A DNA stretch of 32,000 nucleotides from Flavobacteriaceae bacterium (GCA_965224465.1 OZ245049.1:2130001-2162000); one strand, 5' to 3'. Positions 5,059-23,041 are shown, counted from the stretch's first letter. The notes: a model not told the origin generated them from the letters alone. Translations and numbers: made by a program.

Positions 5059-5101
5059 AAAACAAGACTAAATAGCAGGTAAAACCTACAGTTTTATTGA
5101 A

Positions 5102-6071: not shown

Positions 6072-7486
6072 GGTTGTGTAATTTAAACTCTGTCTGCTTG
6101 TTTTTTTCTACGTTTTAAAATAGTTCGATTTTCTCTTCATAAGGCTGCTTTAAAAATCGAACTATTTTAAAATGAGCCCCAGCGGCTAGCGTCACGAATT
6201 GCTTCCGTTTTTATGTAAATCCAACGTTATTCGATCTTCAAATTTAATATATAATTGTTGAATTGTCAAGCACCAATTATGTAAAGGGTTTGTCCATTTT
6301 TTTTCGATATTTTTTGTTGCTAAGTAAACAAGCTTTAATAGTGCCATATCACTGGTAAAAGCCCCTTTTGTTTTAGTTACTTTTCTTACCTGTCTATGAA
6401 AACCTTCTACTGCATTTGTTGTGTAAATTATTTTTCTGATAGGTTCTGTATACTGAAAAAACTGAGATAACTCTTCCCAATTACGGTTCCAACTTTCTAA
6501 AACTACAGGGTATTTTTCTCCCCATTTTTCTTCTAATTTCAATAACTCCAACTCAGCAATATCCTTATTAACAGCCTTGTAAACAAGCTTTAAATCTCGA
6601 ATAAATTCTTTTTGGTCTTTGGAAGCTATATACTTTAAAGAATTACGAATTTGATGAACAATACACTTTTGAATTTGTGTTTTAGGAAATACACTCAAGA
6701 TAGCTTCTGAAAACCCTTTTAAGTTGTCTGTACAGGCAATTAGGATATCCTTAAGCCCTCTGTTATTAAGGTCTGTCAATACTTGAAGCCAAAAATTTGC
6801 GCCTTCACTTTCTGAAATATACATTCCTAAAACCTCTTTGATCCCTTCTTTATTTACTCCTAAAACATTGTAAAGTGCTTTGTGTTGTATTTTACCGTCT
6901 ACTTTTACCTTGTAATGCATAGCGTCAAGCCAAACAATGCAGTACATCTGTTCTATTGGACGACTTTGCCATTGTTTTATATCTGGTATGATCTTATCTG
7001 TAATTTGACTTAAAACAGTGTGTGATATATCTGTATCATACATCTCTTTTATATGACCAGAAATATCGCGTAAGCTCATTCCTAGGCCGTATAATCCAAT
7101 GATCTTATCTGATAAATTATCTGCTAAAATGGTTTGACGCTTTTTTATCAGAACAGGCTCGAAACTACTATTTCTATCCGCTGGCGTGCTTATTTCAAAA
7201 CTACCAATACTAGTTTTAACAGTCTTTTTGCCCTTTCCATTACGTTTATTCCCTTTAGAACATTCCTCTTCACTAAGGTGTGATTCCATTTCTGCTTCCA
7301 ATGCTTTCTCAAGAAATTGTTTCATTAAAGGAGCAAAGGCACCTTCTTTTCCGAATAAACTTTTTCCTGATAATAATTGATCCAATGCCTTTTTTTCAAT
7401 GTTGGCTAACTCGTCTTTTGTCATGTTTTCTGTTTGAATAAAGTTAATACTTTTTTTTATTCAGACAGAGTTGAGTTTACAGTCCC
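6072..7486 (-). mobile_element. IS256-family insertion sequence, copy 1 (1415 bp) with 8-bp TSD
   Basis: Imperfect IRs GGTTGTGTAATTTAAACTCTGTCTG and (reverse complement) GGGACTGTAAACTCAACTCTGTCTG. TSD TGAATTTC at 6064-6071 and 7487-7494. Same length as copy 2. Confidence 0.9.
6192..7424 (-). CDS. IS256 family (Mutator-like) transposase
   Basis: 410 aa with the typical IS256 N-terminus (GKEGAFAPLMKQFLEKALEAEMESHL) and DDE core (WLDAMHYKV, ACTDNLKGF, QKCIVHQIRN, TTNAVEGFHRQVRKVTK). Confidence 0.95.
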   Translation of the reverse strand: MTKDELANIEKKALDQLLSGKSLFGKEGAFAPLMKQFLEKALEAEMESHLSEEECSKGNKRNGKGKKTVKTSIGSFEISTPADRNSSFEPVLIKKRQTILADNLSDKIIGLYGLGMSLRDISGHIKEMYDTDISHTVLSQITDKIIPDIKQWQSRPIEQMYCIVWLDAMHYKVKVDGKIQHKALYNVLGVNKEGIKEVLGMYISESEGANFWLQVLTDLNNRGLKDILIACTDNLKGFSEAILSVFPKTQIQKCIVHQIRNSLKYIASKDQKEFIRDLKLVYKAVNKDIAELELLKLEEKWGEKYPVVLESWNRNWEELSQFFQYTEPIRKIIYTTNAVEGFHRQVRKVTKTKGAFTSDMALLKLVYLATKNIEKKWTNPLHNWCLTIQQLYIKFEDRITLDLHKNGSNS

Positions 7487-8059
7487 TGAATTTCTTAAAA
7501 GAAAATCAAAAGTCTCAAAGTAAGGTAAACTCCAATTTGGTCTATAGTCAAGAAAGCTACCTCCATCATATTCTTTATCATCTAAAGAATAGTAATACCA
7601 GTAATCATCAGATTTAAACCGATATTCAGGTTCATATCGTTTTGTGTATATTAAATAATGTATTGTAGGTGTTTTTTTAAAAAAAAGAAAAACTCGATTT
7701 ACACTAAATTCATATAAGTTATTATTATACGTAGTTTCTGTATAATAGAACCCTTTTTTTATTAAATATTTTGAAATTGAAATTATATCACTATCATTTG
7801 TGATTTTTTCAATTTCAGTTAGGTTAATGCGACAATAATTATCAGTTTTTAATTTGTTTACACGATCATAATTTTTAATAGAAAATGATTTAATTTTATC
7901 TAAATATCCTGTGTTATAGACTTCGGTATATATTTCACCATATTGATGTCTATTCTGATACACTTTATCGAATTTTATTTTTTTGTATTGAACATATATA
8001 CCTAAAAAAAACAAAGCAGATAACAGTGTAACGATTGTATTTTTCTTATTAATTTTCAT
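7457..8059 (-). CDS. membrane-anchored immunity candidate for the 426-aa effector; 3' end replaced by the IS256 insertion
   Basis: N-terminal TM helix (IVTLLSALFFLGIYV). The start overlaps the effector stop (TAATG). The last 10 codons (GTVNSTLSE + stop, 7457-7486) are IS256 sequence. Reading across the TSD restores the original tail ...FLLRNSSYTLKK*. Confidence 0.6.
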   Translation of the reverse strand: MKINKKNTIVTLLSALFFLGIYVQYKKIKFDKVYQNRHQYGEIYTEVYNTGYLDKIKSFSIKNYDRVNKLKTDNYCRINLTEIEKITNDSDIISISKYLIKKGFYYTETTYNNNLYEFSVNRVFLFFKKTPTIHYLIYTKRYEPEYRFKSDDYWYYYSLDDKEYDGGSFLDYRPNWSLPYFETFDFLLRNSGTVNSTLSE

Positions 8060-9341: not shown

Positions 9342-9848
9342 TTAATTTTCTTGTAAAATTGCTTTTAATGGGATGGATTCAATATCGTTAGTGATTTGAA
9401 CTTCTAACGTATCGTTTTCTAGTTTTATTCCATTATGTTCATAATCTAATTTCTGATCATCTAAGTTAAACTTAAACGTTTTCCCCACAGCGTTGCTACT
9501 TTCTATTACGAGCATAATTTCTTCATCAACATCAATATCATTTTTTTCAAGTTCATTCCCCTCTAAATCTTCTATATGATATTTATTGATCTCTGGTTCA
9601 TCATTTAAAACTGTTGGTTCAACAGTATCTTCCTTAAAAGTTTCTCTCCAAGAGGCAGAATACACACCAAACGAGTTAGAATCTTCTACACCAGCACAGG
9701 TAATTTCTAAAGTTTCCGTCATTGGATCTGAGCCTGTAGAAGAAAAATTGGTTTTCCAATTTACAAGATGACAGTCATAGAAAAATATTTTTCTTGTTTT
9801 CCCTCCCAGAATAAATATTGCTTTTAATGGAGTCGTTACATTTATCTG
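9342..9848 (-). pseudogene. tssD: 5'-truncated tssD (from about codon 72) fused to C-terminal extension type 2
   Basis: The frame reads ...ILGGKTRKIFFYDCHLVNWKTNFSSTGSDPMTETLEITCAGVEDSNSFGVYSASWRETFKEDTVEPTVL, as in the full hcp genes, then a different 84-aa tail. It is open upstream to 9848. No start codon before the internal ATG at 9722 (track ORF 9342..9722). Confidence 0.75.
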
Positions 9849-10534
9849 TCAAATATAATATCTCCAAATAAATTAATTTCAAACTCTTTTTTAATAGAAA
9901 ACAACAAGTTAAACTCATTTGTTTTCTTGTTGTATTTTCTAACAAAATAAGTGTTGTTTTTTACTGTTTTTAAAAATTTTACATTTTTTAATTCATCTAT
10001 TCTATGATTGGTTTCTTTCCATGTTTTTCCATAATCACTAGAGTAATAAGTAACGTTTTTATCAAAGTCATAACATTCTAAAATTCCACTATTGATTGAA
10101 AGAGATTCATTTGAAAGGTTTCTATTAAAAGGTAAAATTTTCTCTATGTTTTTTTTGCTCCAATTACTACCATTATCAGTACTTATATATAAATATTGAG
10201 GAGACGTATCACCATCTGAATTCTTTTTAGAAACAAAAGAGATTGTTTCTTTAATTGTACCTAAGCCATCAAAGATATTTTCATATTCATTGAGGTTAAA
10301 CATTTTTATACTCCATGTTTTTCCTGCGTCATTTGAGATAAATAAATAAGGATTTATTGTTGTGAAAATAATTAAATCACCTTTTTCAATAACACCAGAC
10401 ATTCCTTGTATTTCATATATCTTACTAATAGCATAGTTATTCCATTCATATCTAAACAATCCATATATAAAAATACAGATAAGTATAATTACCATGGTTA
10501 CTATCGTAATTACCATTTTATATCTATTTTTCAT
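9842..10534 (-). CDS. membrane-anchored BNR/Asp-box repeat protein (immunity candidate for the NodB effector)
   Basis: N-terminal TM helix. Three SxDxGxTW-type Asp boxes (SNDAGKTWS, STDNGSNWS, SSDYGKTWK). The start is 1 nt after the deacetylase stop. Confidence 0.6.
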   Translation of the reverse strand: MKNRYKMVITIVTMVIILICIFIYGLFRYEWNNYAISKIYEIQGMSGVIEKGDLIIFTTINPYLFISNDAGKTWSIKMFNLNEYENIFDGLGTIKETISFVSKKNSDGDTSPQYLYISTDNGSNWSKKNIEKILPFNRNLSNESLSINSGILECYDFDKNVTYYSSDYGKTWKETNHRIDELKNVKFLKTVKNNTYFVRKYNKKTNEFNLLFSIKKEFEINLFGDIIFDR

Positions 10535-11315
10535 TTTAATAGTTACTTATAACATCAAAGTTATAGTTTTTCTTTTTAAGTTTTTTTATGAGTGCTTTTA
10601 GTTTGTCAGCTTCATTATTTCTAAAAGCTCTATCATGCATTAATAAAACAATTTTATTTTGTTTTTGAGAATTATCATATTCGAACCACCAGTGAGATGA
10701 AACATCTTCAATTTTATCAAAAACATCATCTGGTGAATCAGTAAGTTTATCAAAATCTTTGTATTCGTCAGAATAAAAATCTATAAAAGGATGCATTTCT
10801 GATTCATTACTCCAATTTAATGTATTGTTTGCTGCTTTTGTTTTAACTTGCTTAACTGCTTCATCATGTGCCTCAAAAGACATACTCCATTCTGTGTCCC
10901 ATCCATAAATAACATACTCTTTTTGGTGTAATAAATCGGCTTCGTCTAATGTATCCATATTGTTATCACTATCAGTAATTTGTATTTTAGGGTATCGCCA
11001 AGTGTTTCGCCCAGGGAATCTTGCTAATTTAATCTGATTACCTCCTAATAATTTATCAGTTTTTCTAAAATCTTCAAGAACACTTCTTCGTTCAAATGTC
11101 CCATCAGGTTTCTTACCTATTTTTAATCCCTCATTATAATAGTGTTTATAGAAATCATTTGCGTGGGAATAACTGTGATTAGCAATTTCATGATTTTCTT
11201 TTATTTCATTCAAAAGGGTTTCCTTTTCATCATTGCCGTAATGTATTCCATAATTAACAATATTGATGCCTGTTAAGAAAAACGTAGCTCTCACTCCTGT
11301 TTCTTTTAATACTTT

Positions 11316-12583
11316 GGTTCTACCACGATTTGTGTGGGTATAAATCTAAACCTCCATTAAAAAACAGTATTGCACTTCTAAAATTCACGAAAGTCCTGTA
11401 GCCTTTACCAATAGATTTTATTTCTTGTATTTTACCATTTAGTCTTTCTGCCATTGCATTAGAAGCAGTCTCAACCATTGCATTACACACCCCTTCTATA
11501 TGGTTATTAAACATCCTAGCAACCTTTATAATTTCTTTAATTTTTGTTTCCAAAACACTTGCTCCCCATTTGATAAAAAGACCTAAAGCAACTTTCAAGG
11601 ATGGACTTCTAAATATATTTTTAAAATTTTCTTTAGCTAACCATGCTTTACTTGCTTGATAATTTGCTTCTTGTATTTTGTCAAATAATACTCTTTGTTT
11701 ATCCGTTAAGTTTTCTTTATTTTTAAGCAATACAAATCTACTATTTTTAAGACCTTCTTCTTTTTTCACTTCACGTCTGCGAACTTTATCTATAGCATCA
11801 TTTAAGTACTTTACTAAGTGAAATCGATCATGGACAACTTTCGCTTTTGGAAAAACTTCTTTTACTGACGATAAATAGGCCTTCCACATGTCAATAGAGA
11901 CAGTCTCTACTTCATCTCTATTTATCTCATTTACAATCTTTTCAAGTAAAATTTTAGTCTCTTTTTTAGTCCTACCTTCTGCAACATCAATTACAATTCC
12001 TGTACTCGGATCACTAACTACAGTCACATAGTTATGCCCCTTTTTGAAAGCTTTTTCATCTATACTTAGATGAGAAAATCTTTGGTTTTCTGACCTATTA
12101 GAAAGCCCTCTTTTTACAGAAGTATGTATGATTCGGTTTACAATATTAAAGCCACAACGTAATAGTTTAGCCGTTTGAGTTTGATTTCTTGTTGCTTTCA
12201 ATAAGTCTATAGTTAGCCTTTCAAATAGGTAAGTATGACGATAAAAATTACTAGCCCATGGTACCGTTATCGTTTTAACGCCTTTAGTTGACTTAACTCT
12301 TGGGACTTTACAATTAATGTAGGTTTTGAATTGTAAGGTGTCTAAATGACGCCATCTACGAGTACTTCTATGATCATAAATACTACACAACTCTTCTGTG
12401 TCTGGACAAGATGCTCTTGTTGGTAGATAGTCTATAAATATGTCTATTTCTGAATCTAGATAATTAACTTTTACATCACAAACCTTCCAATCTGTTCCTA
12501 AATTTAATAGTAACTCAAACAGTTTTGTTGAAAACATCTTTTTGAGGTAAAGATACTAATTCCACAACATTCGTGGTAGAACC
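11316..12583 (-). mobile_element. ISL3-family insertion sequence (1268 bp) with 8-bp TSD
   Basis: IRs GGTTCTACCACGATTTGTGTGG and (reverse complement) GGTTCTACCACGAATGTTGTGG. TSD AATACTTT at 11308-11315 and 12584-12591. Confidence 0.9.
11320..12537 (-). CDS. ISL3 family transposase
   Basis: 405 aa. Has an RRWRHLDT zinc-finger-proximal region, SIDEKAFKKGHNYVTVV, SIDMWKAY, HDRFHLVKYL and MAERLNGKIQEIK motifs, as in ISL3 transposases. Confidence 0.9.
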   Translation of the reverse strand: MFSTKLFELLLNLGTDWKVCDVKVNYLDSEIDIFIDYLPTRASCPDTEELCSIYDHRSTRRWRHLDTLQFKTYINCKVPRVKSTKGVKTITVPWASNFYRHTYLFERLTIDLLKATRNQTQTAKLLRCGFNIVNRIIHTSVKRGLSNRSENQRFSHLSIDEKAFKKGHNYVTVVSDPSTGIVIDVAEGRTKKETKILLEKIVNEINRDEVETVSIDMWKAYLSSVKEVFPKAKVVHDRFHLVKYLNDAIDKVRRREVKKEEGLKNSRFVLLKNKENLTDKQRVLFDKIQEANYQASKAWLAKENFKNIFRSPSLKVALGLFIKWGASVLETKIKEIIKVARMFNNHIEGVCNAMVETASNAMAERLNGKIQEIKSIGKGYRTFVNFRSAILFFNGGLDLYPHKSW

Positions 12584-12722
12584 AATACTTTTAATATTTC
12601 CTTTGTTCCTGGCTGAATTCCATCATCAAATGTAAGAAAAACAGTTTTTTTCTTAGACACCTTAGGCAGTTTAATCGTAGTTTTAGTATTTGGATACCCT
12701 TTTATTATTACTGTTGCCATAA

Positions 12723-12998
12723 TTAATTTTCTTGTAAAATTGCTTTTAATGGAATGGATTCAATATCGTTAGTGATCTGAACTTCTAACGTATCGTTTTC
12801 TAGTTTTATTCCATTATGTTCATAATCTAATTTCTGATCATCTAAGTTAAATTTAAACGTTTTCCCCACAGCGTTGCTACTTTCTATTACGAGCATAATT
12901 TCTTCATCAACATCAATATCATTTTTTTCAAGTTCATTCCCCTCTAAATCTTCTATATGATATTTATTGATCTCTGGTTCATCATTTAAAACTGTTGG
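12723..12998 (-). pseudogene. orphan extension-2 fragment (no hcp core, no start codon)
   Basis: Frame PTVLNDEPEINKYHIEDLEG...IPLKAILQEN*, preceded directly by an in-frame TGA (12999-13001). Near-identical to 9342..9617 and 19955..20230. Confidence 0.75.
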
Positions 12999-13090
12999 TC
13001 ATAATTACTCAGCTTTCAGTGCAACAAGACGATAAAATTAGTCGAAGCCCACGAACCTACGTAATTTCAATCGCTAGGTATTAGGCAACG
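12999..13090. repeat. inter-cassette element S, copy 1
   Basis: 92 nt, by eye identical to 20231..20322. Contains the imperfect inverted repeat CGATTGAAATTA / TAATTTTATCG (read on the - strand). Diverged relatives at about 5955-6043 and 24095-24175. Confidence 0.6.
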
Positions 13091-13663
13091 TTATAATATT
13101 CCTAATTTTTTTTTAAATTCTTCTGTTATGTAGTGTTCTAGTTCATCGAAAGTAAAGAATACTTCATATAATGAAAAATCATTATCAGAGTCTCTTAAAT
13201 TTTCCACTAACCCATTCGTGAATTTTATTCCTAATACTTTTTTTTGATTTTTAGTGATAATCCATGGCACTGGAATTTCACTAATGGTAAACTCATCAGG
13301 GTATTCTTTATTTATTCTTTTTTGAATTGTATTTACAAGTTTATTATCTGTATTATTAAAGAAATCTTTAATTGTTATCAATTCTGAATTATCAATATTA
13401 AAATTATATATGTAAGAATATCCTGTTAGATATGCTGTATATGTTTCGATGTCTAATTGAATACTAACAATATGCTTATTAAGGAAATGAATTGCATAAT
13501 TACTATTATTAAATGAATAGCAATTATTTGAACAACATTTAGTATTCAAATAATCAGTAAAATTATTAATGGTCTTTTTTAAACTAATTGAATCAATTAT
13601 GTTTGCTTTATTAATAAAGACAAACTCTTCAACTTCCTTTTTTATAATATAATTAAGAATATC

Positions 13664-15078
13664 GGTTGTGTAATTTAAACTCTGTCTGCTTGTTTTTTTC
13701 TACGTTTTAAAATAGTTCGATTTTCTCTTCATAAGGCTGCTTTAAAAATCGAACTATTTTAAAATGAGCCCCAGCGGCTAGCGTCACGAATTGCTTCCGT
13801 TTTTATGTAAATCCAACGTTATTCGATCTTCAAATTTAATATATAATTGTTGAATTGTCAAGCACCAATTATGTAAAGGGTTTGTCCATTTTTTTTCGAT
13901 ATTTTTTGTTGCTAAGTAAACAAGCTTTAATAGTGCCATATCACTGGTAAAAGCCCCTTTTGTTTTAGTTACTTTTCTTACCTGTCTATGAAAACCTTCT
14001 ACTGCATTTGTTGTGTAAATTATTTTTCTGATAGGTTCTGTATACTGAAAAAACTGAGATAACTCTTCCCAATTACGGTTCCAACTTTCTAAAACTACAG
14101 GGTGTTTTTCTCCCCATTTTTCTTCTAATTTCAATAACTCCAACTCAGCAATATCCTTATTAACAGCCTTGTAAACAAGCTTTAAATCTCGAATAAATTC
14201 TTTTTGGTCTTTGGAAGCTATATACTTTAAAGAATTACGAATTTGATGAACAATACACTTTTGAATTTGTGTTTTAGGAAATACACTCAAGATAGCTTCT
14301 GAAAACCCTTTTAAGTTGTCTGTACAGGCAATTAGGATATCCTTAAGCCCTCTGTTATTAAGGTCTGTCAATACTTGAAGCCAAAAATTTGCGCCTTCAC
14401 TTTCTGAAATATACATTCCTAAAACCTCTTTGATCCCTTCTTTATTTACTCCTAAAACATTGTAAAGTGCTTTGTGTTGTATTTTACCGTCTACTTTTAC
14501 CTTGTAATGCATAGCGTCAAGCCAAACAATGCAGTACATCTGTTCTATTGGACGACTTTGCCATTGTTTTATATCTGGTATGATCTTATCTGTAATTTGA
14601 CTTAAAACAGTGTGTGATATATCTGTATCATACATCTCTTTTATATGACCAGAAATATCGCGTAAGCTCATTCCTAGGCCGTATAATCCAATGATCTTAT
14701 CTGATAAATTATCTGCTAAAATGGTTTGACGCTTTTTTATCAGAACAGGCTCGAAACTACTATTTCTATCCGCTGGCGTGCTTATTTCAAAACTACCAAT
14801 ACTAGTTTTAACAGTCTTTTTGCCCTTTCCATTACGTTTATTCCCTTTAGAACGTTCCTCTTCACTAAGGTGTGATTCCATTTCTGCTTCCAATGCTTTC
14901 TCAAGAAATTGTTTCATTAAAGGAGCAAAGGCACCTTCTTTTCCGAATAAACTTTTTCCTGATAATAATTGATCCAATGCCTTTTTTTCAATGTTGGCTA
15001 ACTCGTCTTTTGTCATGTTTTCTGTTTGAATAAAGTTAATACTTTTTTTTATTCAGACAGAGTTGAGTTTACAGTCCC
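13664..15078 (-). mobile_element. IS256-family insertion sequence, copy 2 (1415 bp) with 8-bp TSD
   Basis: Same ends as copy 1. TSD AGAATATC at 13656-13663 and 15079-15086. The intact paralog has a single AGAATATC at about 20888-20895. Confidence 0.95.
13784..15016 (-). CDS. IS256 family transposase (copy 2)
   Basis: 410 aa. Differs from copy 1 at two residues (C55R, Y304H). Confidence 0.95.
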   Translation of the reverse strand: MTKDELANIEKKALDQLLSGKSLFGKEGAFAPLMKQFLEKALEAEMESHLSEEERSKGNKRNGKGKKTVKTSIGSFEISTPADRNSSFEPVLIKKRQTILADNLSDKIIGLYGLGMSLRDISGHIKEMYDTDISHTVLSQITDKIIPDIKQWQSRPIEQMYCIVWLDAMHYKVKVDGKIQHKALYNVLGVNKEGIKEVLGMYISESEGANFWLQVLTDLNNRGLKDILIACTDNLKGFSEAILSVFPKTQIQKCIVHQIRNSLKYIASKDQKEFIRDLKLVYKAVNKDIAELELLKLEEKWGEKHPVVLESWNRNWEELSQFFQYTEPIRKIIYTTNAVEGFHRQVRKVTKTKGAFTSDMALLKLVYLATKNIEKKWTNPLHNWCLTIQQLYIKFEDRITLDLHKNGSNS

Positions 15079-15284
15079 AGAATATCAGATGATTTTTTTG
15101 AATCAAAATTAAAAAACGGAAGATTATAATTACTGAGGATTTCTCCATCACATACTATTGTATCTTTTATAGAACTAACTACAATTTTTGTTTTATTAGT
15201 AGTATTAATTTGACTTTTACAAGAAGTGGTCAATAATACTACTAGCAGAAAAATAATATAATTATTTATCTTTTTCATCTTCGT

Positions 15285-16559
15285 TTATTTTAGTTGTATT
15301 GGTTTTAATTTTAAATCTGAAGTAATTTCAAAAGGGATAACATTAATACCTTTGACGGTTGTTTTAATAGGATTTTGTTTGCGTAATTCTTTTAATAGGA
15401 TTTCTGCTTTTGGGTCTTTTAAATTTACAGTTACTGTTTTTCCTTTCACTTTAGTTTTAACCAATATATCTTTTGAAATAGCTAACAAGATATTTTCAAT
15501 TTCATCTTTTTGCTCTTTTGTTCCAGTCTTATGAATCTCTTTGTAATGTTTGTAAACTTTAAAAGCTTCATCGTCTTTTGCTTTTAATGTATAATCTTTT
15601 CTTTCTTCTATACCATTGGTTCCTCCATTAATTCTTTTGGACACTTTTTTTATACTATCTTTATTGGAATATTCATAAACCTTTCCATTGCCAATCATCC
15701 AATACCAAAGTGCAGATTGAGTAGCATAGATTGGATTTGCTTTGTCTTCTATTTTTTTTGAGTTTATAGCTTTAGTGAAATCTAAATTTACTGAAGCATC
15801 ATTAGAAAAAGGATGTTTTTTTCTGTAATCAGAAAAAATAGTGTAATTATTCTTTCCTGTTAATTGAATGATACCTCTACCTAGAAAATTGTAACCATCA
15901 TCACCTCCATTATGTCCCAAGTCTTTTCTGTTTGAATATTTCCTATTGGCTATTTCTTTTTCATTGTGAGAATGAGATAATACTTGAACATAAATAGTTT
16001 TCTCTTCGTTAAGGTAAATTTTTTCTTGATATTTCTTTTTTTTAGTATAACCATAAATATATGCTGGATTTAGCTTATCACAATTAGCATATTTATCTTT
16101 TTTATCTTTATCCTTTTTTTTATCAGCTTCTTTTCTGTTATCTATAATTTTGAATTTATCTTTATATGTCTTAATATTAGCGTCAGTAAGTTTTATTAGT
16201 TCGCTCTCTGTATAGTATTTCTTAAGACTAGATGGCTTATAAGCCATATCTTCTTTTAGAGTATAAAACTTTTTACTTTCAACTAGACATTGAGAAATAA
16301 AATGAGCTTTACGTAAGCAAGTATCTAGTTTATAAGTTTTTCTGTAGTCATTGAGGTACTTTATGATTTTTTTTGCTAAAATTTCGTTTACATTAGGTTC
16401 AATGTGTTTTATTTGCTCTATTGTTATTTCTTCTTTGCAGTAAGGGCAAGGTTCTGTTTTTTTTATGGTAAGAGGTGTTTCTTTGTACGGAAGTAACTCA
16501 CCGTTGTAATATACCCTTGGTATATAAGTTATTGTTTTAAGCTTTTTCTTTTCAGCCAT
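15285..16559 (-). CDS. GH19/COG3179-type (chitinase/lysozyme-like) peptidoglycan hydrolase effector, copy 1
   Basis: 424 aa. Pattern ITIEQIKHI-P-...LNDYRKTYKLDT-LRKAHFISQCLVESKKF...YSNRKDLGHNGGDDGYNFLGRGIIQLTGKNNY...ATQSALWYWM...RINGGTNGIEERK matches the phage/T6SS GH19-like lysozyme family. The start is 4 nt after the hcp stop. Confidence 0.75.
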   Translation of the reverse strand: MAEKKKLKTITYIPRVYYNGELLPYKETPLTIKKTEPCPYCKEEITIEQIKHIEPNVNEILAKKIIKYLNDYRKTYKLDTCLRKAHFISQCLVESKKFYTLKEDMAYKPSSLKKYYTESELIKLTDANIKTYKDKFKIIDNRKEADKKKDKDKKDKYANCDKLNPAYIYGYTKKKKYQEKIYLNEEKTIYVQVLSHSHNEKEIANRKYSNRKDLGHNGGDDGYNFLGRGIIQLTGKNNYTIFSDYRKKHPFSNDASVNLDFTKAINSKKIEDKANPIYATQSALWYWMIGNGKVYEYSNKDSIKKVSKRINGGTNGIEERKDYTLKAKDDEAFKVYKHYKEIHKTGTKEQKDEIENILLAISKDILVKTKVKGKTVTVNLKDPKAEILLKELRKQNPIKTTVKGINVIPFEITSDLKLKPIQLK

Positions 16560-16563: not shown

Positions 16564-17232
16564 TTATTGTTTTAAAATTACTTCTCCATTTTCGTTAACG
16601 ATTCCTTTAAGTTCTATATTGTTTGTAGGATCATCATCTGCATCTTCTAATATTATTTTTAGTTCTTCACCTTCTTCTATATCTTTTACTTTTAAAAACA
16701 GTTGAGAATTAGAACTAATTTCAGCTTCTTTTATAGAGTTACCTTCTTCGTCTTTCCATTCTGTTTTTAGGATTTTAGGATTTTTTTCAATTTCTTGCTC
16801 TCTCTCTAATACTGTTGGTTCAACAGTATCTTCTTTAAAAGTTTCTCTCCAAGAGGCAGAATACACACCAAACGAGTTAGAATCTTCTACACCAGCACAG
16901 GTAATTTCTAAAGTTTCCGTCATTGGATCTGAGCCTGTAGAAGAAAAATTGGTTTTCCAATTTACAAGATGACAGTCATAGAAAAATATTTTTCTTGTTT
17001 TCCCTCCCACAATAACGGAATTAATATGTAATACTAGCTGTTTTGTTTGCCTGGAGGAAAAAGACCATTCCGTAAGATTTATGTCTTTTCTAGTTTCTAT
17101 AATTAGTTTAAAACCTAGAAATATAGGTGTCTGTGAGGGTCTGCCGTTAGGGTTTGCTCCTTGATTAAATCTGATCGTAAACAATAGTGCGTTTACTTCT
17201 TTTCCATCTATTATTAATGTTGCTTTTACCAT
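16564..17232 (-). CDS. tssD: T6SS-iii tube protein TssD (Hcp) with ~85-aa C-terminal extension type 1, copy 1
   Basis: 222 aa. Residues 1-~135 follow the Bacteroidetes TssD pattern (KATLIIDGKE, GRPSQ, IIETRKD, DPMTETLEI, SASW). The acidic beta-rich tail is not found in canonical ~130-aa TssD. Confidence 0.75.
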   Translation of the reverse strand: MVKATLIIDGKEVNALLFTIRFNQGANPNGRPSQTPIFLGFKLIIETRKDINLTEWSFSSRQTKQLVLHINSVIVGGKTRKIFFYDCHLVNWKTNFSSTGSDPMTETLEITCAGVEDSNSFGVYSASWRETFKEDTVEPTVLEREQEIEKNPKILKTEWKDEEGNSIKEAEISSNSQLFLKVKDIEEGEELKIILEDADDDPTNNIELKGIVNENGEVILKQ

Positions 17233-17730: not shown

Positions 17731-17910
17731 CCAATAAGGAGAAGGAAAATGCATCTGTATCCAGATCATGTAAAAAATCACAACATTATTGCTGTGGTTT
17801 TATTGTTTCACAAAAGCCTGCTTAACCATTACACTTAATGGCTGTGCGGCTTAACGTTGACGACACACAATAAAATCGTGCGTTAGCGATGGCGGTTATT
17901 CGTGCTACGA
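17731..17910. repeat. repeat R, copy 2
   Basis: See copy 1. Includes a hairpin at about 17773-17801 which, read on the - strand, is followed by a U run (terminator-like). Confidence 0.8.
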
Positions 17911-18116: not shown

Positions 18117-18578
18117 TTATTTTTCGTTTAAAGTAATTGTATCTTTAATGTTTTCAGGGTAGGTTAAATACCAAATATTAGGGTTACTTTCGGATCTTAA
18201 ATAACTTAAAGTCTCCCAATAGTCTTCTTCGCATCTTTCAATTATACTTTCAACATTTTTGAGATGTTTATAGTTCGCAAAATATCCTCTTGTGCAAGAG
18301 TTGTTTTCGAAAAACACAAAACCTAGTTCATTCACAGTAGTATTTGCAACAAGTATTTCTTTTATTCTTTTTCTTGCAAAAAATAAAAGAATAGAATCAT
18401 TATCTGTAGAGCTATAAGATAAACTATTTATTAAATAGGTCTCATAGATTGCTCCATTAGTTTGTTTTTCAGATAATATCTTTTTAGCATTAAAACTGTT
18501 ATCACAACTTATTAGAATAGTCATTAAGAAAAAAAAGCCTATTCTAATAATTATATTTTTATATTTTGTTTCTCTCAT
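18117..18578 (-). CDS. lipoprotein immunity candidate for the frameshifted DUF3289-like effector
   Basis: 153 aa. Signal peptide plus lipobox (MTILISC). The start overlaps the effector 3' end by 20 nt. Confidence 0.6.
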   Translation of the reverse strand: MRETKYKNIIIRIGFFFLMTILISCDNSFNAKKILSEKQTNGAIYETYLINSLSYSSTDNDSILLFFARKRIKEILVANTTVNELGFVFFENNSCTRGYFANYKHLKNVESIIERCEEDYWETLSYLRSESNPNIWYLTYPENIKDTITLNEK

Positions 18579-19952
18579 ATTTACCTTTATTTAGATTACC
18601 AGTAAATTTTTTTGTAAATTTTATATGAGTAATAAATGGTTTATAGCCTCTTAAATGTTGTAGTGTAAACCATGAAGAAAAAATGACTCTAGCACCTTTA
18701 AATAAGTTAAAGTATTTTTCTAAATCAGATTTATCTAATCCAAAGTGATCCCATAAAGTTACATCATACTTTATGTTGTATATATTATTTTCTAATTTAT
18801 ATTCTGTAACCTCAACTTTAGTAGCCCAAATATCATTTAATGCAATCCTTTGTCCTGCCAGTAAGTCTTCAAAAGAATCAAATTGTGGACGCATAAAGAA
18901 AATTTCTTTTCTTGTTGTTTTACTTATCTGAGTAGTTGTTTTTCCTTTTTTCCTACGATTTTTCAAATTGCTTGTTCCCATAAAGTCAATTTCATTTTCA
19001 ATTAGTCCTGACAGTTTCCCTTTGCTGTTTTTTAGTTTTTCAGCAATATAATCTTCTACTTCTTTGCAATAAGTAAGAGTAGATTGATGGTTTTTAATTG
19101 CATTTGTAAGTATATTAGATCGATAAACTCCTCCCTTATTTCTTTTAAATTTGGAAATCATATCTTTTATGTTAATTTCTAATTTCCCTTCAGCCATTAA
19201 GAGTACAACACCTTTTTCAAATTTTACGAAAAGCTCATTATCTGTGTAATTTTCGTTAAGATGTTTTATCTCTTCTCCAGCAGTATCTACAATAAGTTCT
19301 CAACTTTTAAGTACCATGGTACATTTTTGTAATCTATTTTATATATCTCTTCTTTACTATATAATGTTTTATCATATTTATCATCTTTATTGCTTAATGT
19401 AGAAGTAAAAAAAGTATTTGAAATATAATCTTTTTTTAGTTTATTTATAAAGTTATCAGGGTAAACTCTTCTAACTATATTTTCACCCTTTCCATATGTT
19501 AGGTCCTCTGCTATATCTGTTCCCTCATTATTTAATCCAGGCATCCTGAACATATCTATACAAATTGGTAAATTAAGTATATTTACTTCTACAAAAACAT
19601 CCTTATGAGGTAGGTTCCCTGCATAAGCGTATATCTTAAATTTTTCTTTCGGTTTCTCCGTTTTTATCTTAACTTTTAATGTATCACCGTCTAGTTCTCC
19701 TCCCGAAAAAAGCTTATACGATTTACAATGGTCATCTTTATCATAGGAGATAGCCCAGTTAATTTTTTTGGGATTGACATTATTATTTCTTAAAGTAGCA
19801 ACATAAATGTACTCTTTTTCTTTTTCTATATATTCTAACTTATTGTTAACTGTGTCAAAAGGCCCTTCTACTTTAACAACTACTCTTACAACCTTAGGCA
19901 GTTTAATCGTAGTTTTAGTATTTGGATACCCTTTTATTATTACTGTTGCCAT
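18559..19952 (-). pseudogene. DUF3289-like effector paralog split by a frameshift (track ORFs 19287..19952 and 18559..19197)
   Basis: The upstream ORF ends at TAG 19287-19289. The downstream frame is already open from 19299, 34 codons before its ATG. One indel within 19290-19299 would fuse them into a ~460-aa protein built like the 426-aa paralog. Confidence 0.7.
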
Positions 19953-19954: not shown

Positions 19955-20230
19955 TTAATTTTCTTGTAAAATTGCTTTTAATGGGATGGATTCAATATCG
20001 TTAGTGATTTGAACTTCTAACGTATCGTTTTCTAGTTTTATTCCATTATGTTCATAATCTAATTTCTGATCATCTAAGTTAAACTTAAACGTTTTCCCCA
20101 CAGCGTTGCTACTTTCTATTACGAGCATAATTTCTTCATCAACATCAATATCATTTTTTTCAAGTTCATTCCCCTCTAAATCTTCTATATGATATTTATT
20201 GATCTCTGGTTCATCATTTAAAACTGTTGG
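19955..20230 (-). pseudogene. orphan extension-2 fragment (no hcp core, no start codon), second copy
   Basis: Same breakpoint as 12723..12998: an in-frame TGA at 20231-20233 immediately precedes CCA ACA GTT. Confidence 0.75.
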
Positions 20231-20322
20231 TCATAATTACTCAGCTTTCAGTGCAACAAGACGATAAAATTAGTCGAAGCCCACGAACCTACGTAATTTC
20301 AATCGCTAGGTATTAGGCAACG
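20231..20322. repeat. inter-cassette element S, copy 2
   Basis: By eye identical to 12999..13090. Confidence 0.6.
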
Positions 20323-21087
20323 TTATAATATTCCTAATTTTTTTTTAAATTCTTCTGTTATGTAGTGTTCTAGTTCATCGAAAGTAAAGAATACTTCATA
20401 TAATGAAAAATCATTATCAGAGTCTCTTAAATTTTCCACTAACCCATTCGTGAATTTTATTCCTAATACTTTTTTTTGATTTTTAGTGATAATCCATGGC
20501 ACTGGAATTTCACTAATAGTAAACTCATCAGGGTATTCTTTATTTATTCTTTTTTGAATTGTATTTACAAGTTTATTATCTGTATTATTAAAGAAATCTT
20601 TAATTGTTATCAATTCTGAATTATCAATATTAAAATTATATATGTAAGAATATCCTGTTAGATATGCTGTATATGTTTCGATGTCTAATTGAATACTAAC
20701 AATATGCTTATTAAGGAAATGAATTGCATAATTACTATTATTAAATGAATAGCAATTATTTGAACAACATTTAGTATTCAAATAATTAGTAAAATTATTA
20801 ATGGTCTTTTTTAAACTAATTGAATCAATTATGTTTGCTTTATTAATAAAGACAAACTCTTCAACTTCCTTTTTTATAATATAATTAAGAATATCAGATG
20901 ATTTTTTTGAATCAAAATTAAAAAACGGAAGATTATAATTACTGAGGATTTCTCCATCACATACTATTGTATCTTTTATAGAACTAACTACAATTTTTGT
21001 TTTATTAGTAGTATTAATTTGACTTTTACAAGAAGTGGTCAATAATACTACTAGCAGAAAAATAATATAATTATTTATCTTTTTCAT
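20323..21087 (-). CDS. lipoprotein immunity protein for the GH19-like effector (intact copy); possibly RsiV/DUF3298-like
   Basis: 254 aa. Signal peptide plus lipobox (LLTTSC). Sits 6 nt downstream of the effector. The central ETYTAYLTGYSYIYNFNIDNSELITIKDFF resembles the DUF3298 core; this is a low-certainty, by-eye call. Confidence 0.7.
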   Translation of the reverse strand: MKKINNYIIFLLVVLLTTSCKSQINTTNKTKIVVSSIKDTIVCDGEILSNYNLPFFNFDSKKSSDILNYIIKKEVEEFVFINKANIIDSISLKKTINNFTNYLNTKCCSNNCYSFNNSNYAIHFLNKHIVSIQLDIETYTAYLTGYSYIYNFNIDNSELITIKDFFNNTDNKLVNTIQKRINKEYPDEFTISEIPVPWIITKNQKKVLGIKFTNGLVENLRDSDNDFSLYEVFFTFDELEHYITEEFKKKLGIL

Positions 21088-21093: not shown

Positions 21094-22368
21094 TTATTTT
21101 AGTTGTATTGGTTTTAATTTTAAATCTGAAGTAATTTCAAAAGGGATAACATTAATACCTTTGACGGTTGTTTTAATAGGATTTTGTTTGCGTAATTCTT
21201 TTAATAGGATTTCTGCTTTTGGGTCTTTTAAATTTACAGTTACTGTTTTTCCTTTCACTTTAGTTTTAACCAATATATCTTTTGAAATAGCTAACAAGAT
21301 ATTTTCAATTTCATCTTTTTGCTCTTTTGTTCCAGTCTTATGAATCTCTTTGTAATGTTTGTAAACTTTAAAAGCTTCATCGTCTTTTGCTTTTAATGTA
21401 TAATCTTTTCTTTCTTCTATACCATTGGTTCCTCCATTAATTCTTTTGGACACTTTTTTTATACTATCTTTATTGGAATATTCATAAACCTTTCCATTGC
21501 CAATCATCCAATACCAAAGTGCAGATTGAGTAGCATAGATTGGATTTGTTTTGTCTTCTATTTTTTTTGAGTTTATAGCTTTAGTGAAATCTAAATTTAC
21601 TGAAGCATCATTAGAAAAAGGATGTTTTTTTCTGTAATCAGAAAAAATAGTGTAATTATTCTTTCCTGTTAATTGAATGATACCTCTACCTAGAAAATTG
21701 TAACCATCATCACCTCCATTATGTCCCAAGTCTTTTCTGTTTGAATATTTCCTATTGGCTATTTCTTTTTCATTGTGAGAATGAGATAATACTTGAACAT
21801 AAATAGTTTTCTCTTCGTTAAGGTAAATTTTTTCTTGATATTTCTTTTTTTTAGTATAACCATAAATATATGCTGGATTTAGCTTATCACAATTAGCATA
21901 TTTATCTTTTTTATCTTTATCCTTTTTTTTATCAGCTTCTTTTCTGTTATCTATAATTTTGAATTTATCTTTATATGTCTTAATATTAGCGTCAGTAAGT
22001 TTTATTAGTTCGCTCTCTGTATAGTATTTCTTAAGACTAGATGGCTTATAAGCCATATCTTCTTTTAGAGTATAAAACTTTTTACTTTCAACTAAACATT
22101 GAGAAATAAAATGAGCTTTACGTAAGCAAGTATCTAGTTTATAAATTTTTCTGTATTCATTGAGGTACTTTATGATTTTTTTCGCTAAAGTTTCGTTTAC
22201 ATTAGGTTCAATGTGTTTTATTTGCTCTATTGTTATTTCTTCTTTGCAGTAAGGGCAAGGTTCTGTTTTTTTTATGGTAAGAGGTGTTTCTTTGTACGGA
22301 AGTAACTCACCGTTGTAATATACCCTTGGTATATAAGTTATTGTTTTAAGCTTTTTCTTTTCAGCCAT
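21094..22368 (-). CDS. GH19/COG3179-type peptidoglycan hydrolase effector, copy 2
   Basis: 424 aa. Four aa differences from copy 1 (I60T, D71E, T75I, A274T). Confidence 0.75.
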   Translation of the reverse strand: MAEKKKLKTITYIPRVYYNGELLPYKETPLTIKKTEPCPYCKEEITIEQIKHIEPNVNETLAKKIIKYLNEYRKIYKLDTCLRKAHFISQCLVESKKFYTLKEDMAYKPSSLKKYYTESELIKLTDANIKTYKDKFKIIDNRKEADKKKDKDKKDKYANCDKLNPAYIYGYTKKKKYQEKIYLNEEKTIYVQVLSHSHNEKEIANRKYSNRKDLGHNGGDDGYNFLGRGIIQLTGKNNYTIFSDYRKKHPFSNDASVNLDFTKAINSKKIEDKTNPIYATQSALWYWMIGNGKVYEYSNKDSIKKVSKRINGGTNGIEERKDYTLKAKDDEAFKVYKHYKEIHKTGTKEQKDEIENILLAISKDILVKTKVKGKTVTVNLKDPKAEILLKELRKQNPIKTTVKGINVIPFEITSDLKLKPIQLK

Positions 22369-22372: not shown

Positions 22373-23041
22373 TTATTGTTTTAAAATTACTTCTCCATTT
22401 TCGTTAACGATTCCTTTAAGTTCTATATTGTTTGTAGGATCATCATCTGCATCTTCTAATATTATTTTTAGTTCTTCACCTTCTTCTATATCTTTTACTT
22501 TTAAAAACAGTTGAGAATTAGAACTAATTTCAGCTTCTTTTATAGAGTTACCTTCTTCATCTTTCCATTCTGTTTTTAGGATTTTAGGATTTTTTTCAAT
22601 TTCTTGCTCTCTCTCTAATACTGTTGGCTCAACAGTATCTTCCTTAAAAGTTTCTCTCCAAGAGGCAGAATACACACCAAACGAGTTAGAATCTTCTACA
22701 CCAGCACAGGTAATTTCTAAAGTTTCCGTCATTGGATCTGAGCCTGTAGAAGAAAAATTGGTTTTCCAATTTACAAGATGACAGTCATAGAAAAATATTT
22801 TTCTTGTTTTCCCTCCCAGAATAACGGAATTAATATGTAATATTAGCTGTTTTGTTTGCCTGCAGGAAAAAGACCATTCCGTAAGGTTTATGTCTTTTCT
22901 AGTTTCTATAATTAATTTAAACCCCAGAAATACGGGGATTTGTGAAGGTCTGCCATTAGGATTTGCTCCTTGATTAAATCTGATCGTAAACAATAGTACG
23001 TTTACTTCTTTTCCATCTATTATTAATGTTGCTTTTACCAT
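22373..23041 (-). CDS. tssD: TssD (Hcp) with C-terminal extension type 1, copy 2
   Basis: 222 aa. Six aa differences from copy 1, all within the first 75 residues. Confidence 0.75.
   Translation of the reverse strand: MVKATLIIDGKEVNVLLFTIRFNQGANPNGRPSQIPVFLGFKLIIETRKDINLTEWSFSCRQTKQLILHINSVILGGKTRKIFFYDCHLVNWKTNFSSTGSDPMTETLEITCAGVEDSNSFGVYSASWRETFKEDTVEPTVLEREQEIEKNPKILKTEWKDEEGNSIKEAEISSNSQLFLKVKDIEEGEELKIILEDADDDPTNNIELKGIVNENGEVILKQ

What the first reader, a model, noticed from the sequence alone, without database searches (positions are those of the whole stretch)
9342..9848. Displaced 5'-truncated hcp/extension-2 modules: Hcp behaves like the constant part of a polymorphic toxin locus
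Three copies of extension-2 lack a functional hcp core. The first, 9342..9848, keeps hcp from about codon 72 onward. Its DNA by eye is nearly identical to 16810-16995 and 22620-22805 up to ...EDTVEPTVL, where it switches to NDEPEINKYH. The other two, 12723..12998 and 19955..20230, keep only PTVL plus ext2, and an in-frame TGA sits immediately upstream of them. So the 5' breakpoints of the two short copies fall within about 10 nt of the core/extension boundary. All three fragments still sit 2 nt upstream of an effector plus immunity pair. This is the layout of orphan CT/immunity modules downstream of rhs or cdiA genes. Here the conserved recombination handle would be the 3' end of hcp, and the swapped unit would be extension plus effector plus immunity. 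Recombination with an intact hcp copy would re-arm the tube with a new cargo set.
Basis: partly seen in the sequence, partly recalled or inferred. Interest (0 to 1): 0.85.

Follow-up and report, generated by a model that had tools for sequence, protein, structure and literature searches.

The report
Stranded Hcp-adaptor fragments in T6SS array
Three broken copies of a secretion-tube gene (hcp) that keep only its cargo-matching tail are leftovers of toxin cassettes being swapped between hcp genes; this suggests that marine Bacteroidota re-target their type VI secretion tube protein by exchanging a small plug-in adaptor together with its toxin and antidote genes.

Summary
Window 9342-9822 (minus strand) is hcp/TssD codons 74-146 fused to an 87-aa "extension-2". 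Positions 12723-12999 and 19955-20231 keep only the last four linker codons (PTVL) plus ext2. The two short copies are one truncation event copied inside a 5.8-kb repeat, not two events.

All three sit in a tandem array of five Hcp-linked effector/immunity modules that is riddled with IS elements. New evidence:
- The same genome encodes an intact Hcp-ext2 (P0004).
- ext1 and ext2 are each found on unrelated TssD cores in other organisms.
- The extension is a separately folded beta-sandwich behind a disordered linker.
- Extension type tracks the first 20-35 residues of the downstream effector, not the Hcp core.
- hcpA and hcpB differ by about 7% before codon 75 and about 0.6% from there to codon 21 of the next effector. 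This is the footprint of a cassette transfer between the hcp 3' block and ext2.

The "Hcp as constant part of a polymorphic locus" reading is therefore largely supported. The "orphan reservoir" part is only partly supported. Only the first fragment has a usable handle (about 209 nt) and an intact effector/immunity pair. Two of the three stranded effectors are broken. The stranded cargo could also be loaded in trans. I rate it a new variant of a known kind.

The parts
22373..23041 (-). hcpA-ext1: intact TssD core + linker + extension-1 (222 aa)
   Evidence: PF17642 E 4.8e-23; ORF
21094..22368 (-). effector 1 (424 aa), GH19-like endolysin-type muramidase domain; N-terminal tag MAEKKKLKTITYIPRVYY...
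   Evidence: phmmer vs PDB 9ms7 endolysin E 3.4e-17; tag conserved after every ext1
20323..21087 (-). immunity 1 (254-aa lipoprotein-like)
   Evidence: ORF and position; homologues after eff1 in L003, L005, L007, L008
20232..20322 (-). 91-nt spacer: truncated copy of an intergenic element also present at about 5960-6075 and 24100-24240
   Evidence: alignment; identical copy at 13000-13090; no special fold, z = 0
19955..20231 (-). short stranded copy: last 13 nt of the hcp linker (PTVL) + ext2, no core
18559..19952 (-). effector 2a: ext2-type N-terminal domain + DUF3289 toxin, broken by a frameshift near 19290
   Evidence: three-frame translation; PF11692; BLASTP to eff2b
18117..18578 (-). immunity 2a (153 aa)
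   Evidence: ORF and position
16564..17232 (-). hcpB-ext1: second intact copy. The 5' 223 nt are 7% diverged from hcpA; the rest is near-identical
15285..16559 (-). effector 1' (copy of effector 1)
   Evidence: (98% repeat)
13091..15278 (-). immunity 1' interrupted by IS256 (about 13657-15083, 8-bp overlap of the flanks)
12723..12999 (-). short stranded copy (duplicate of 19955-20231): PTVL + ext2
10536..12720 (-). polysaccharide/peptidoglycan-deacetylase effector carrying only the 21-aa ext2-type tag, split by ISL3 (11316-12588, TSD AAAGTATT)
   Evidence: intact 303-aa orthologue in L001; insertion mapped
9842..10534 (-). immunity for the deacetylase (BNR/Tli3-like, 230 aa)
   Evidence: 75% identical orthologue in L001
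9342..9822 (-). the finding: hcp codons 74-146 (9606-9822) + ext2 (9342-9605). The first possible start is ATG at 9722 (126-aa ORF = P0001)
9817..9830 (-). 14-nt exact copy of the 3' end of ext2 (CCATTAAAAGCAAT) at the 5' junction of the fragment
   Evidence: 4 hits, 0.07 expected; junction alignment with L001
8059..9339 (-). effector 2b (426 aa, ext2-type N-terminal domain + DUF3289), intact
7457..8059 (-). immunity 2b (200 aa), intact
   Evidence: conserved in related strain L009
16809..16829 (.). perfect palindrome ATACTGTTG-AAC-CAACAGTAT encoding DTVEPTVL at the core/extension junction. Also at 22618-22638 (9 bp) and 9610-9626 (7 bp). The short copies begin in its loop
   Evidence: DNA hairpin z = -4.8
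17743..17905 (-). one of five copies of a ~170-nt intergenic repeat with a terminator-like hairpin; it separates the hcpA unit from the hcpB unit

Best explanation
WHAT IT IS. The segment is a dead 3' piece of an hcp (TssD) gene still joined to its C-terminal extension-2. It is one of three such leftovers in a tandem array of five Hcp-linked type VI (T6SSiii-type) effector/immunity modules, in an IS-rich, 30% GC, Flavobacteriaceae-like genome.

HOW THE PROTEIN IS BUILT. In this protein family Hcp has three parts:
- a tube-protein core;
- a flexible linker (...EDTVEPTVL...);
- a ~75-87-aa beta-sandwich extension.
The extension acts as a cargo adaptor. Its type matches the first 20-35 residues of the effector encoded 2-4 nt downstream, whichever Hcp core or toxin domain is attached.

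HOW THE FRAGMENTS AROSE. The unit adaptor + effector + immunity moves between hcp cores by recombination, using the near-identical 3' part of the core and ext2 itself as homology.
- Placing an ext1/muramidase/immunity cassette between a core and its ext2 stranded the ext2 modules. This happened once; the product was then copied into hcpB by a double crossover.
- An earlier event placed an ext2/deacetylase module ahead of an older hcp-ext2/DUF3289 module, leaving frag1.

SHOWN: the anatomy, the module shuffling between cores, the covariation, the mosaic identity step, and the intact Hcp-ext2 elsewhere in the genome.
INFERRED: adaptor binding of the effector tag, the order and mechanism of the events, and the present-day use of the stranded cargo. 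That use could be in trans via P0004. Or, for frag1 only, recombination between the 209-bp direct repeats could delete about 7.2 kb and recreate an intact hcp-ext2.
For: - Anatomy and repeats.
- TssD identity: Pfam. AF2 model of P0004 with Foldseek hits to B. fragilis and F. johnsoniae Hcp structures at E 3e-8 to 9e-7.
- Domain structure: the linker 133-143 is disordered, and ext2 is confidently folded (pLDDT ~88) both in context and alone.
- An intact 229-aa Hcp-ext2 (P0004) is encoded on the same 5.24-Mb contig. Its 5' half is hcpB-type with 1 aa difference.
- Extensions on unrelated cores: ext2 in L001, with the intact deacetylase effector and immunity. ext1 in P0069 and in L005/L007/L008.
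- Covariation: extension vs effector N-terminal 35 aa rho 0.60, p 2e-4. Core vs N-terminus rho 0.02.
- Mosaic: hcpA and hcpB have 15 differences in nt 1-217 and none in nt 224-398. They are ~99.4% identical down to codon 21 of the next effector, and homology ends there (Fisher p 4e-10).
- No IS element abuts any of the three junctions.
- Published precedent: Bacteroides minor Hcps recognise an N-terminal loading region of their effectors and cosegregate with them (PMC13035841, PMC13213661).
Against: - The layout (extension directly after an immunity gene, core physically absent) occurs only in this window among about 25 related loci. Generality is unproven.
- Two of the three stranded effectors and one immunity gene are inactivated, as expected for debris.
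- The 91-nt spacer before the short copies is a truncated copy of an intergenic element that elsewhere precedes an hcp upstream region. A plain deletion of spacer + promoter + core would give the same product.
- Physical binding of extension to effector tag is untested.
- The covariation sample is small and partly non-independent (three modules come from one MAG).
- The rest of the genome, including the P0004 locus and any T6SS core cluster, could not be read.
Confidence: 0.6

Rival explanations
1. Plain genome decay. The fragments are pseudogene debris from deletions and rearrangements in a genome undergoing IS expansion. They have no role as a reservoir and no special recombination logic. 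The match to the core/extension boundary is chance or reflects a fragile palindrome.
For: - At least six IS elements lie in 32 kb: IS66, two IS256, ISL3, IS30-like and IS21-like.
- IS insertions hit an effector and an immunity gene of the array.
- A related strain (L009) has a further IS30/IS256 truncation of eff2b.
- The spacer is a truncated intergenic element, compatible with a deletion.
- Single-lesion hcp-ext pseudogenes are common elsewhere: L001, L006, L011, L015, L019, L022.
Against: - None of the three junctions is next to an IS end.
- The short-copy breakpoint falls within 13 nt of the end of ext1/ext2 homology, about a 3% chance for a random deletion endpoint in a 440-nt core.
- The sharp 7% to 0.6% divergence step between hcpA and hcpB requires a homologous exchange.
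- Extensions sit on unrelated cores in other organisms.
- Decay of the present copies is compatible with a recombinational origin, so this rival bears on function rather than origin.
Confidence: 0.25
2. The stranded effectors are not orphans. They are still transcribed from the upstream hcp promoters and delivered in trans by the intact Hcp-ext2 (P0004) encoded elsewhere. The ext2 fragments are irrelevant scars. A minor variant holds that they are translated from internal ATGs (126-aa and 57-aa ORFs) as free adaptor or chaperone domains.
For: - An intact Hcp-ext2 is in the same genome.
- eff2b and imm2b are intact and tightly coupled, with a 2-nt gap and an overlapping stop/start.
- The only terminator-like repeat elements bracket the units hcpA..imm2a and hcpB..imm2b. 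None lies between the intact and the stranded modules. The spacer has no special fold.
Against: - There are no expression data, and promoter scans are uninformative here (85 found vs 94 expected).
- IS256 and ISL3 now sit upstream of eff2b in the same unit and may be polar.
- No bona fide free-standing extension gene was found. All five 'ext-only' ORFs checked are pieces of disrupted full-length hcp-ext genes.
- A search with the ext2 sequence alone found only 2 proteins among 5.8 billion clusters.
Confidence: 0.3
3. Assembly artefact: collapsed or mis-joined repeats created apparent truncations.
For: The region is highly repetitive, with 98-99.7% repeats of 0.3-2.6 kb. An independent assembly (L009) covers only window 1-8481 and so does not confirm the junctions.
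Against: - The source is a single 5.24-Mb contig.
- Each junction has unique flanks. The short-copy junction occurs twice in different downstream contexts with a few SNPs between the copies.
- The IS insertions show clean target duplications.
Confidence: 0.03

Closest known systems
Orphan CT/immunity modules downstream of rhs and cdiA (own knowledge; Koskiniemi et al. 2014 on Salmonella, as cited in PMC5361080)
   Same: Tandem, same-strand modules downstream of a full-length gene. The displaced module lacks a start and the N-terminal part but keeps a stretch of the conserved region. A cognate immunity gene follows. Direct repeats could rejoin the module to the main gene.
   Different: The constant gene is the T6SS tube protein, not a toxin scaffold. 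The variable part fused to it is a non-toxic adaptor-like domain, and the toxin is a separate ORF. Only one of the three fragments keeps a usable handle (209 nt); the others keep 13 nt. Activation has not been shown.
Sequential displacement of effector genes in Vibrio cholerae T6SS auxiliary clusters (PMC5361080)
   Same: New effector/immunity modules are inserted next to a conserved T6SS gene, pushing older modules downstream. The proposed mechanism is homology-facilitated illegitimate recombination plus ordinary homologous exchange.
   Different: In Vibrio the old effector is lost and only immunity genes accumulate. Here whole adaptor + effector + immunity units persist. The anchor in Vibrio is not hcp.
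Minor Hcps as effector-recognition particles in Bacteroidales GA2/GA3 T6SS (PMC13213661, PMC13035841)
   Same: T6SSiii-type TssD proteins encoded next to, and cosegregating with, their cargo effectors. The effectors carry an N-terminal loading region. The closest structural matches of the core are these Hcps.
   Different: In Bacteroides, specificity lies in hypervariable residues of the Hcp ring itself, and the Hcp has no extension. Here the core is nearly constant among paralogues, and specificity appears to sit in a separate C-terminal domain that is swapped as a module.
Evolved/specialised Hcp with C-terminal toxin (Hcp-ET; 10.1101/2021.10.07.463556, PMC4714493)
   Same: Hcp core with a C-terminal extension, encoded in auxiliary loci and followed by immunity genes. 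True toxin fusions of the same core family exist in relatives: L004, L012, L017, L019 (HExxH metallopeptidase).
   Different: ext1 and ext2 are 75-87-aa beta-sandwiches without toxin features. The toxin is the next gene.

Membership tests
TssD/Hcp of Bacteroidota-type T6SS (PF17642) | Sequence match to the TssD profile above the curated cut-off | tested here: met
   Intact genes score 81.9 bits against a cut-off of 25.8. frag1 scores 28.9 bits, covering only profile positions 78-117.
TssD/Hcp of Bacteroidota-type T6SS (PF17642) | Hcp beta-barrel fold | tested here: met
   The AF2 model of the full-length paralogue P0004 matches 8gra, 6bdc and 7yw0 (TM to target 0.78-0.80). frag1 retains only about 3 of the core strands (from residue 74), so it cannot form the fold.
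TssD/Hcp of Bacteroidota-type T6SS (PF17642) | Genomic linkage to T6SS core genes / ring assembly | tested here: inconclusive
   There are no tss core genes in the window. A homologous hcp-ext lies inside the main T6SSiii cluster of Cellulophaga (L022: ClpV, TssC, TssE, TssF, TssO). Assembly cannot be tested here.
rhs/cdiA-type orphan toxin-immunity module | Lies downstream of, and on the same strand as, a full-length gene; lacks start and N-terminal region | tested here: met
rhs/cdiA-type orphan toxin-immunity module | Retains a stretch of the conserved core long enough for homologous recombination | tested here: inconclusive
   frag1 has 209-217 nt at 99-100% identity. The two short copies have 13 nt only.
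rhs/cdiA-type orphan toxin-immunity module | The variable part fused to the core is the toxin domain | tested here: not met
   The fused part is an 87-aa beta-sandwich with no toxin similarity. The toxins are separate ORFs.
rhs/cdiA-type orphan toxin-immunity module | Followed by an intact cognate toxin and immunity pair | tested here: inconclusive
   Intact after frag1 only. The other two effectors are frameshifted or IS-split.
rhs/cdiA-type orphan toxin-immunity module | Can be activated by recombination with the full-length gene | not testable with these tools
   There is only indirect support: the hcpA/hcpB mosaic shows a past exchange through these blocks.
Evolved Hcp (Hcp-ET) | C-terminal extension is a toxin neutralised by the adjacent immunity protein | tested here: not met
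   See above. The gene immediately downstream of the extension is the effector, not an immunity gene.
Site-specific cassette system (integron-like) | Dedicated recombinase next to the array and a conserved recombination site at every cassette boundary | tested here: not met
   Only IS transposases are present. The junction palindrome / 13-mer occurs only at hcp-extension junctions and is not conserved in other genomes.

The most novel reading that the evidence does not exclude
The core/extension junction is a dedicated exchange point. The linker DTVEPTVL is encoded by a perfect 7-9-bp palindrome. The short fragments begin in its loop. The cassette (extension + effector + immunity, sometimes with the 3' 210 nt of hcp) would be a mobile unit that bacteria shuffle in and out of hcp genes by hairpin- or break-directed recombination. 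The stranded copies would then form a heritable reservoir, re-armed at low frequency in subpopulations. In effect this would be a shufflon/integron-like system for re-targeting the T6SS tube protein.
Probability: 0.08. Interest if true: 0.85.

Novelty: new variant of a known kind. Interest (0 to 1): 0.55.

Why it matters
How Hcp-borne T6SS cargo is chosen is an active question. In Bacteroides the answer published in 2026 is hypervariable residues inside heteromeric Hcp rings.

This locus points to a different and simpler solution in marine Flavobacteriaceae. A near-constant Hcp core carries a plug-in C-terminal beta-sandwich that travels with its effector and immunity genes and matches a short N-terminal tag on the effector.

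If this is confirmed, three things follow:
- It gives a rule for finding cargo effectors in T6SSiii genomes: read the gene after any hcp-ext and its first ~30 residues.
- It gives a portable tag/adaptor pair for engineering delivery.
- It extends the 'constant handle plus displaced modules' evolutionary logic of rhs/cdiA loci to a structural tube protein.

The stranded fragments are the visible footprints of that exchange.

Tried and rejected
1. Recurrent truncation at codon 75. Several database proteins of 154-156 aa start MGGKTRK..., as frag1 does. In every case checked the 5' half is present upstream, with a start-codon change (L010), a nonsense codon (L011) or a frameshift (L006). They are gene-calling artefacts, not truncations.

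2. Free-standing extension genes. A profile search found many 78-134-aa 'ext-only' ORFs. Those with retrievable context (L001, L006, L010, L011, L022) are pieces of disrupted full-length hcp-ext genes.

3. Spacer as terminator. The 91-nt spacer folds no better than shuffles (z = 0).

4. Conserved junction palindrome. It is absent or reduced to 4 bp in other genomes.

5. Gene conversion as the sole cause of the identical block at residues 76-128 in all paralogues. Against a paralogue from a related strain the block shows 8 synonymous and 1 non-synonymous change, which indicates protein-level constraint. DNA-level identity (0/0) holds only among the three window copies.

6. Effector N-terminal domain as a widespread family. 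A word-based search found only the window's own copy.

7. Rfam: no hits.

8. Source genome: could not be retrieved. The genome scan returned only relatives. Exact-protein look-ups for P0001, hcpA, eff2b and P0004 found no record. The metagenome scan gave 7 short loci with no arrays.

9. The 362-aa gene preceded by a third copy of the hcp upstream region is not related to an effector in L020 of the same length.

10. ext2 fold search. No significant match to a solved structure (best E 0.25).

Full report
OBSERVATION

All array genes lie on the minus strand of a 30% GC window. Translation of 9342-9851(-) reads ...ILGGKTRKIFFYDCHLVNW...EDTVEPTVL followed by NDEPEINKYH...QEN*. The two intact 222-aa genes at 22373-23041 and 16564-17232 match Pfam TssD over profile positions 3-117. 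The fragment matches only positions 78-117.

At DNA level, 9606-9814 is 99.0% identical to 22616-22824 and 98.6% identical to 16807-17015. Similarity to the ext1 genes ends inside the PTVL codons. Homology begins at gene nt ~219, which is codon 74.

The copies at 12723-12999 and 19955-20231 begin at ACCAACAGTTTTA (PTVL), directly after an in-frame TGA. Every ext2 stop codon is followed 2 nt later by an ATG.

CORRECTIONS

The two short copies are one event. 12651-13663 and 19884-20895 are 99.3% identical, including the 91-nt spacer before PTVL. They belong to a 5.8-kb repeat (15079-17657 matches 20888-23465) that is interrupted in one copy by IS256.

Only the effector after frag1 is intact. The one after 19955 is a DUF3289 effector with a frameshift near 19290. 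The one after 12723 is a deacetylase split by ISL3 at 11316-12588, with an 8-bp target duplication.

LAYOUT (gene direction, high to low coordinates)

- Unit A: hcpA-ext1, a GH19-like muramidase effector, an immunity gene, the spacer, PTVL-ext2, frameshifted DUF3289 effector 2a, and immunity 2a.
- A ~170-nt repeat with a terminator-like hairpin follows.
- Unit B: hcpB-ext1, the same effector, the immunity gene split by IS256, the spacer, PTVL-ext2, the deacetylase effector split by ISL3, a Tli3/BNR-like immunity gene, frag1 (hcp codons 74-146 + ext2), intact DUF3289 effector 2b, and immunity 2b.
- IS256 and IS66 follow.

WHAT THE EXTENSION IS

Homologues of ~226-248 aa (TssD core plus a C-terminal ~85-aa region) are common in Flavobacteriaceae, including Tenacibaculum, Olleya, Tamlana, Psychroserpens, Aquimarina and Cellulophaga. 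NCBI annotates them simply as TssD. A profile of the extension alone finds 382 clusters at 50% identity.

The AF2 model of the full-length paralogue P0004 shows three parts:
- an Hcp barrel over residues 1-128; the best Foldseek hits are B. fragilis Hcp in the Hcp-VgrG-PAAR complex (8gra), F. johnsoniae Hcp1 (6bdc) and B. fragilis Hcp5 (7yw0);
- a disordered linker over residues 133-143, exactly KEDTVEPTVLN;
- a confident all-beta domain.

Modelled alone, ext2 is a six-strand beta-sandwich (pLDDT 88.5). It has no significant solved relative. In some relatives the same core is fused directly to an HExxH toxin: L004, L012, L017, L019.

MODULARITY

An exact-cluster look-up showed that the same 5.24-Mb contig encodes an intact 229-aa Hcp-ext2, P0004. 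Its first 75 residues equal hcpB's apart from one residue. The same contig also encodes at least five further Hcp-ext paralogues with different extensions.

ext2 also occurs on an unrelated TssD core in metagenome contig L001. There it precedes the intact 303-aa deacetylase effector and its immunity gene. This is the uninterrupted counterpart of window 12720-9842.

ext1 occurs on other cores too: P0069 in the same genome, and L005/L007/L008 in another MAG. In every case it is followed by an effector that starts MAExxKxKxxTYIPxVYYxGxLLPYKETPLT. Every ext2 is followed by MA(S)T(I)xIKGYPNTxTTIxLPKV. This holds even where only those 21 residues are shared and the rest is a deacetylase.

I compared 12 modules:
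- extension identity against effector N-terminal 35 aa: Mantel rho 0.60, p 2e-4;
- core identity against the same N-terminus: rho 0.02, p 0.41;
- extension against core: rho -0.05.
The caveats are the small sample and that three modules come from one MAG.

Published work on Bacteroides shows that minor Hcps bind an N-terminal loading region of their effectors and cosegregate with them (PMC13035841, PMC13213661). Taken together, this supports an adaptor role for the extension. Binding itself is inferred, not shown.

FOOTPRINT OF EXCHANGE

hcpA and hcpB differ at 15 of the first 217 nt. The last difference of that cluster is at nt 223. There are no differences between nt 224 and 398. From there to codon 21 of the effector after ext2 they are ~99.4% identical, and beyond that point homology stops (Fisher p 4e-10). 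The upstream regions are ~91% identical.

The simplest reading is as follows. An hcpB-ext2-deacetylase gene set, arranged as in L001, received [ext1-effector-immunity-spacer-PTVL] from the hcpA unit. This happened by a double crossover, one in the hcp 3' block and one in ext2. hcpB was thereby re-equipped with ext1 cargo, and ext2 plus the deacetylase were stranded. P0004 carries the hcpB-type 5' half with ext2, which fits this reading.

The identical protein block at residues 76-128 in all paralogues is not by itself evidence of conversion. Against a paralogue from a related strain the block has 8 synonymous but only 1 non-synonymous change. That points to lineage-specific constraint, perhaps from co-assembly. 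Only the three window copies are identical at the DNA level.

JUNCTIONS

frag1. Similarity to the L001 immunity gene ends at the stop codon. About 25 nt follow, containing an exact 14-mer from the 3' end of ext2 (4 hits in the window, 0.07 expected). Then hcp codon 74 begins. This scrap is unexplained.

Short copies. The spacer is a truncated member of an intergenic element that elsewhere precedes an hcp upstream region. Two origins fit equally well: a deletion of spacer + promoter + core, or a homology-anchored illegitimate insertion of the kind proposed for Vibrio cholerae (PMC5361080).

The breakpoint lies within 13 nt of the end of ext1/ext2 homology. It also lies in the loop of a perfect palindrome (ATACTGTTG-AAC-CAACAGTAT) that encodes DTVEPTVL. 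As a DNA hairpin this scores z = -4.8. The palindrome is not conserved in other genomes. I therefore treat it as a lead, not a mechanism.

No junction abuts an IS end.

GENERALITY AND RIVALS

In about 25 related loci I found no other case of an extension placed directly after an immunity gene with the core absent.

The nearest case is L019. It has an intact Hcp-toxin and immunity pair. This is followed by an Hcp with an in-frame deletion of codons 10-45, a frameshifted toxin and an immunity gene.

Single-lesion hcp-ext pseudogenes are frequent: L001, L006, L011, L015, and L022 in a complete Cellulophaga genome inside the main T6SSiii cluster. Lesions in L009, L010 and L021 come from an error-rich long-read assembly and should be discounted.

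Present-day decay is therefore real and competes with a 'reservoir' function. Because an intact Hcp-ext2 exists and no terminator-like element separates intact from stranded modules, trans-loading of eff2b is also plausible.

Only frag1 could be rejoined to a core by ordinary homologous recombination. It has 209-bp direct repeats and a 7.2-kb interval to hcpB.

COMPARISON AND VERDICT

The system works like rhs/cdiA orphan arrays and like Vibrio effector displacement. It fails one defining feature of the former: the fused variable part is an adaptor, not the toxin. It differs from the latter in that whole modules persist.

It belongs to the TssD family. It extends the recent Bacteroides 'minor Hcp as recognition particle' idea to a modular C-terminal adaptor.

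Literature searches found no description of Hcp-anchored displaced modules or of this extension family. The library is incomplete, so prior description cannot be excluded.

I rate it a new variant of a known kind, with interest 0.55.

Noticed in passing
window 16809-16829, 22618-22638, 9610-9626: The linker peptide DTVEPTVL at the core/extension boundary is encoded by a perfect palindrome (9-bp stem, 3-nt loop; 7 bp in the ext2 version). The two short fragments start inside its loop. It is not conserved in homologues from other genomes.
   Followed up: partly
window 9817-9830: An exact 14-nt copy of the 3' end of ext2 (CCATTAAAAGCAAT) sits between the stop codon of the upstream immunity gene and hcp codon 74 of the fragment. 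Its origin is unexplained; it may be the scar of an earlier rearrangement.
   Followed up: partly
window 5790-5942, 17743-17905, 23888-24050, 26014-26179, 29618-29788: Five copies (86-91% identical) of a ~170-nt intergenic repeat containing a terminator-like hairpin plus T-run. They appear to bracket transcription units. There is no Rfam match and no covariation.
   Followed up: partly
window 25402-25745 (also 17269-17605, 23078-23413): The ~340-nt region immediately upstream of both hcp genes occurs a third time (about 90% identity) in front of an unrelated 362-aa ORF with a signal-peptide-like start (24238-25326). It is a shared promoter/leader or a repeat element.
   Followed up: no
L001 1380-1460; L006 360-380; L011 about 9899; L015 about 1690; L022 about 9854; L019 10001-11780: Accessory hcp-extension genes in other genomes very often carry a single inactivating lesion: a frameshift in an A-run, a nonsense codon, or an in-frame deletion. 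One example is in the main T6SSiii cluster of a complete Cellulophaga genome. This may reflect frequent silencing or turnover of cargo adaptors.
   Followed up: partly
L019 10001-10040: An Hcp-toxin gene downstream of an intact Hcp-toxin/immunity pair has lost codons 10-45 by an in-frame deletion between two KLII-encoding direct repeats. This is a second, different way of disabling the core of a downstream module.
   Followed up: yes
window 3528-5534 vs L009; window 8481 vs L009 755-1918: A 99.3-99.9% identical strain in metagenome ERZ25073217 lacks the IS66 insertion seen here. It has instead an IS30-like + IS256 junction that truncates effector 2b. IS activity is therefore reshaping this array between close strains.
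   Followed up: yes
P0080, P0096, P0109, P0113, P0120: The extension-type beta-sandwich also occurs as tandem repeats. It also occurs near the N-terminus of large (446-852-aa) proteins that lack an Hcp core, possibly effectors that carry the same fold.
   Followed up: no
P0020 (source genome) vs P0022 (L021 5270-5878): Two Hcp-ext proteins share the core, the linker and the first 7 extension residues (…VEPTIRDDNEPNF) and then switch to unrelated extension sequence. This suggests a breakpoint just inside the extension. The L021 assembly is of poor quality.
   Followed up: no
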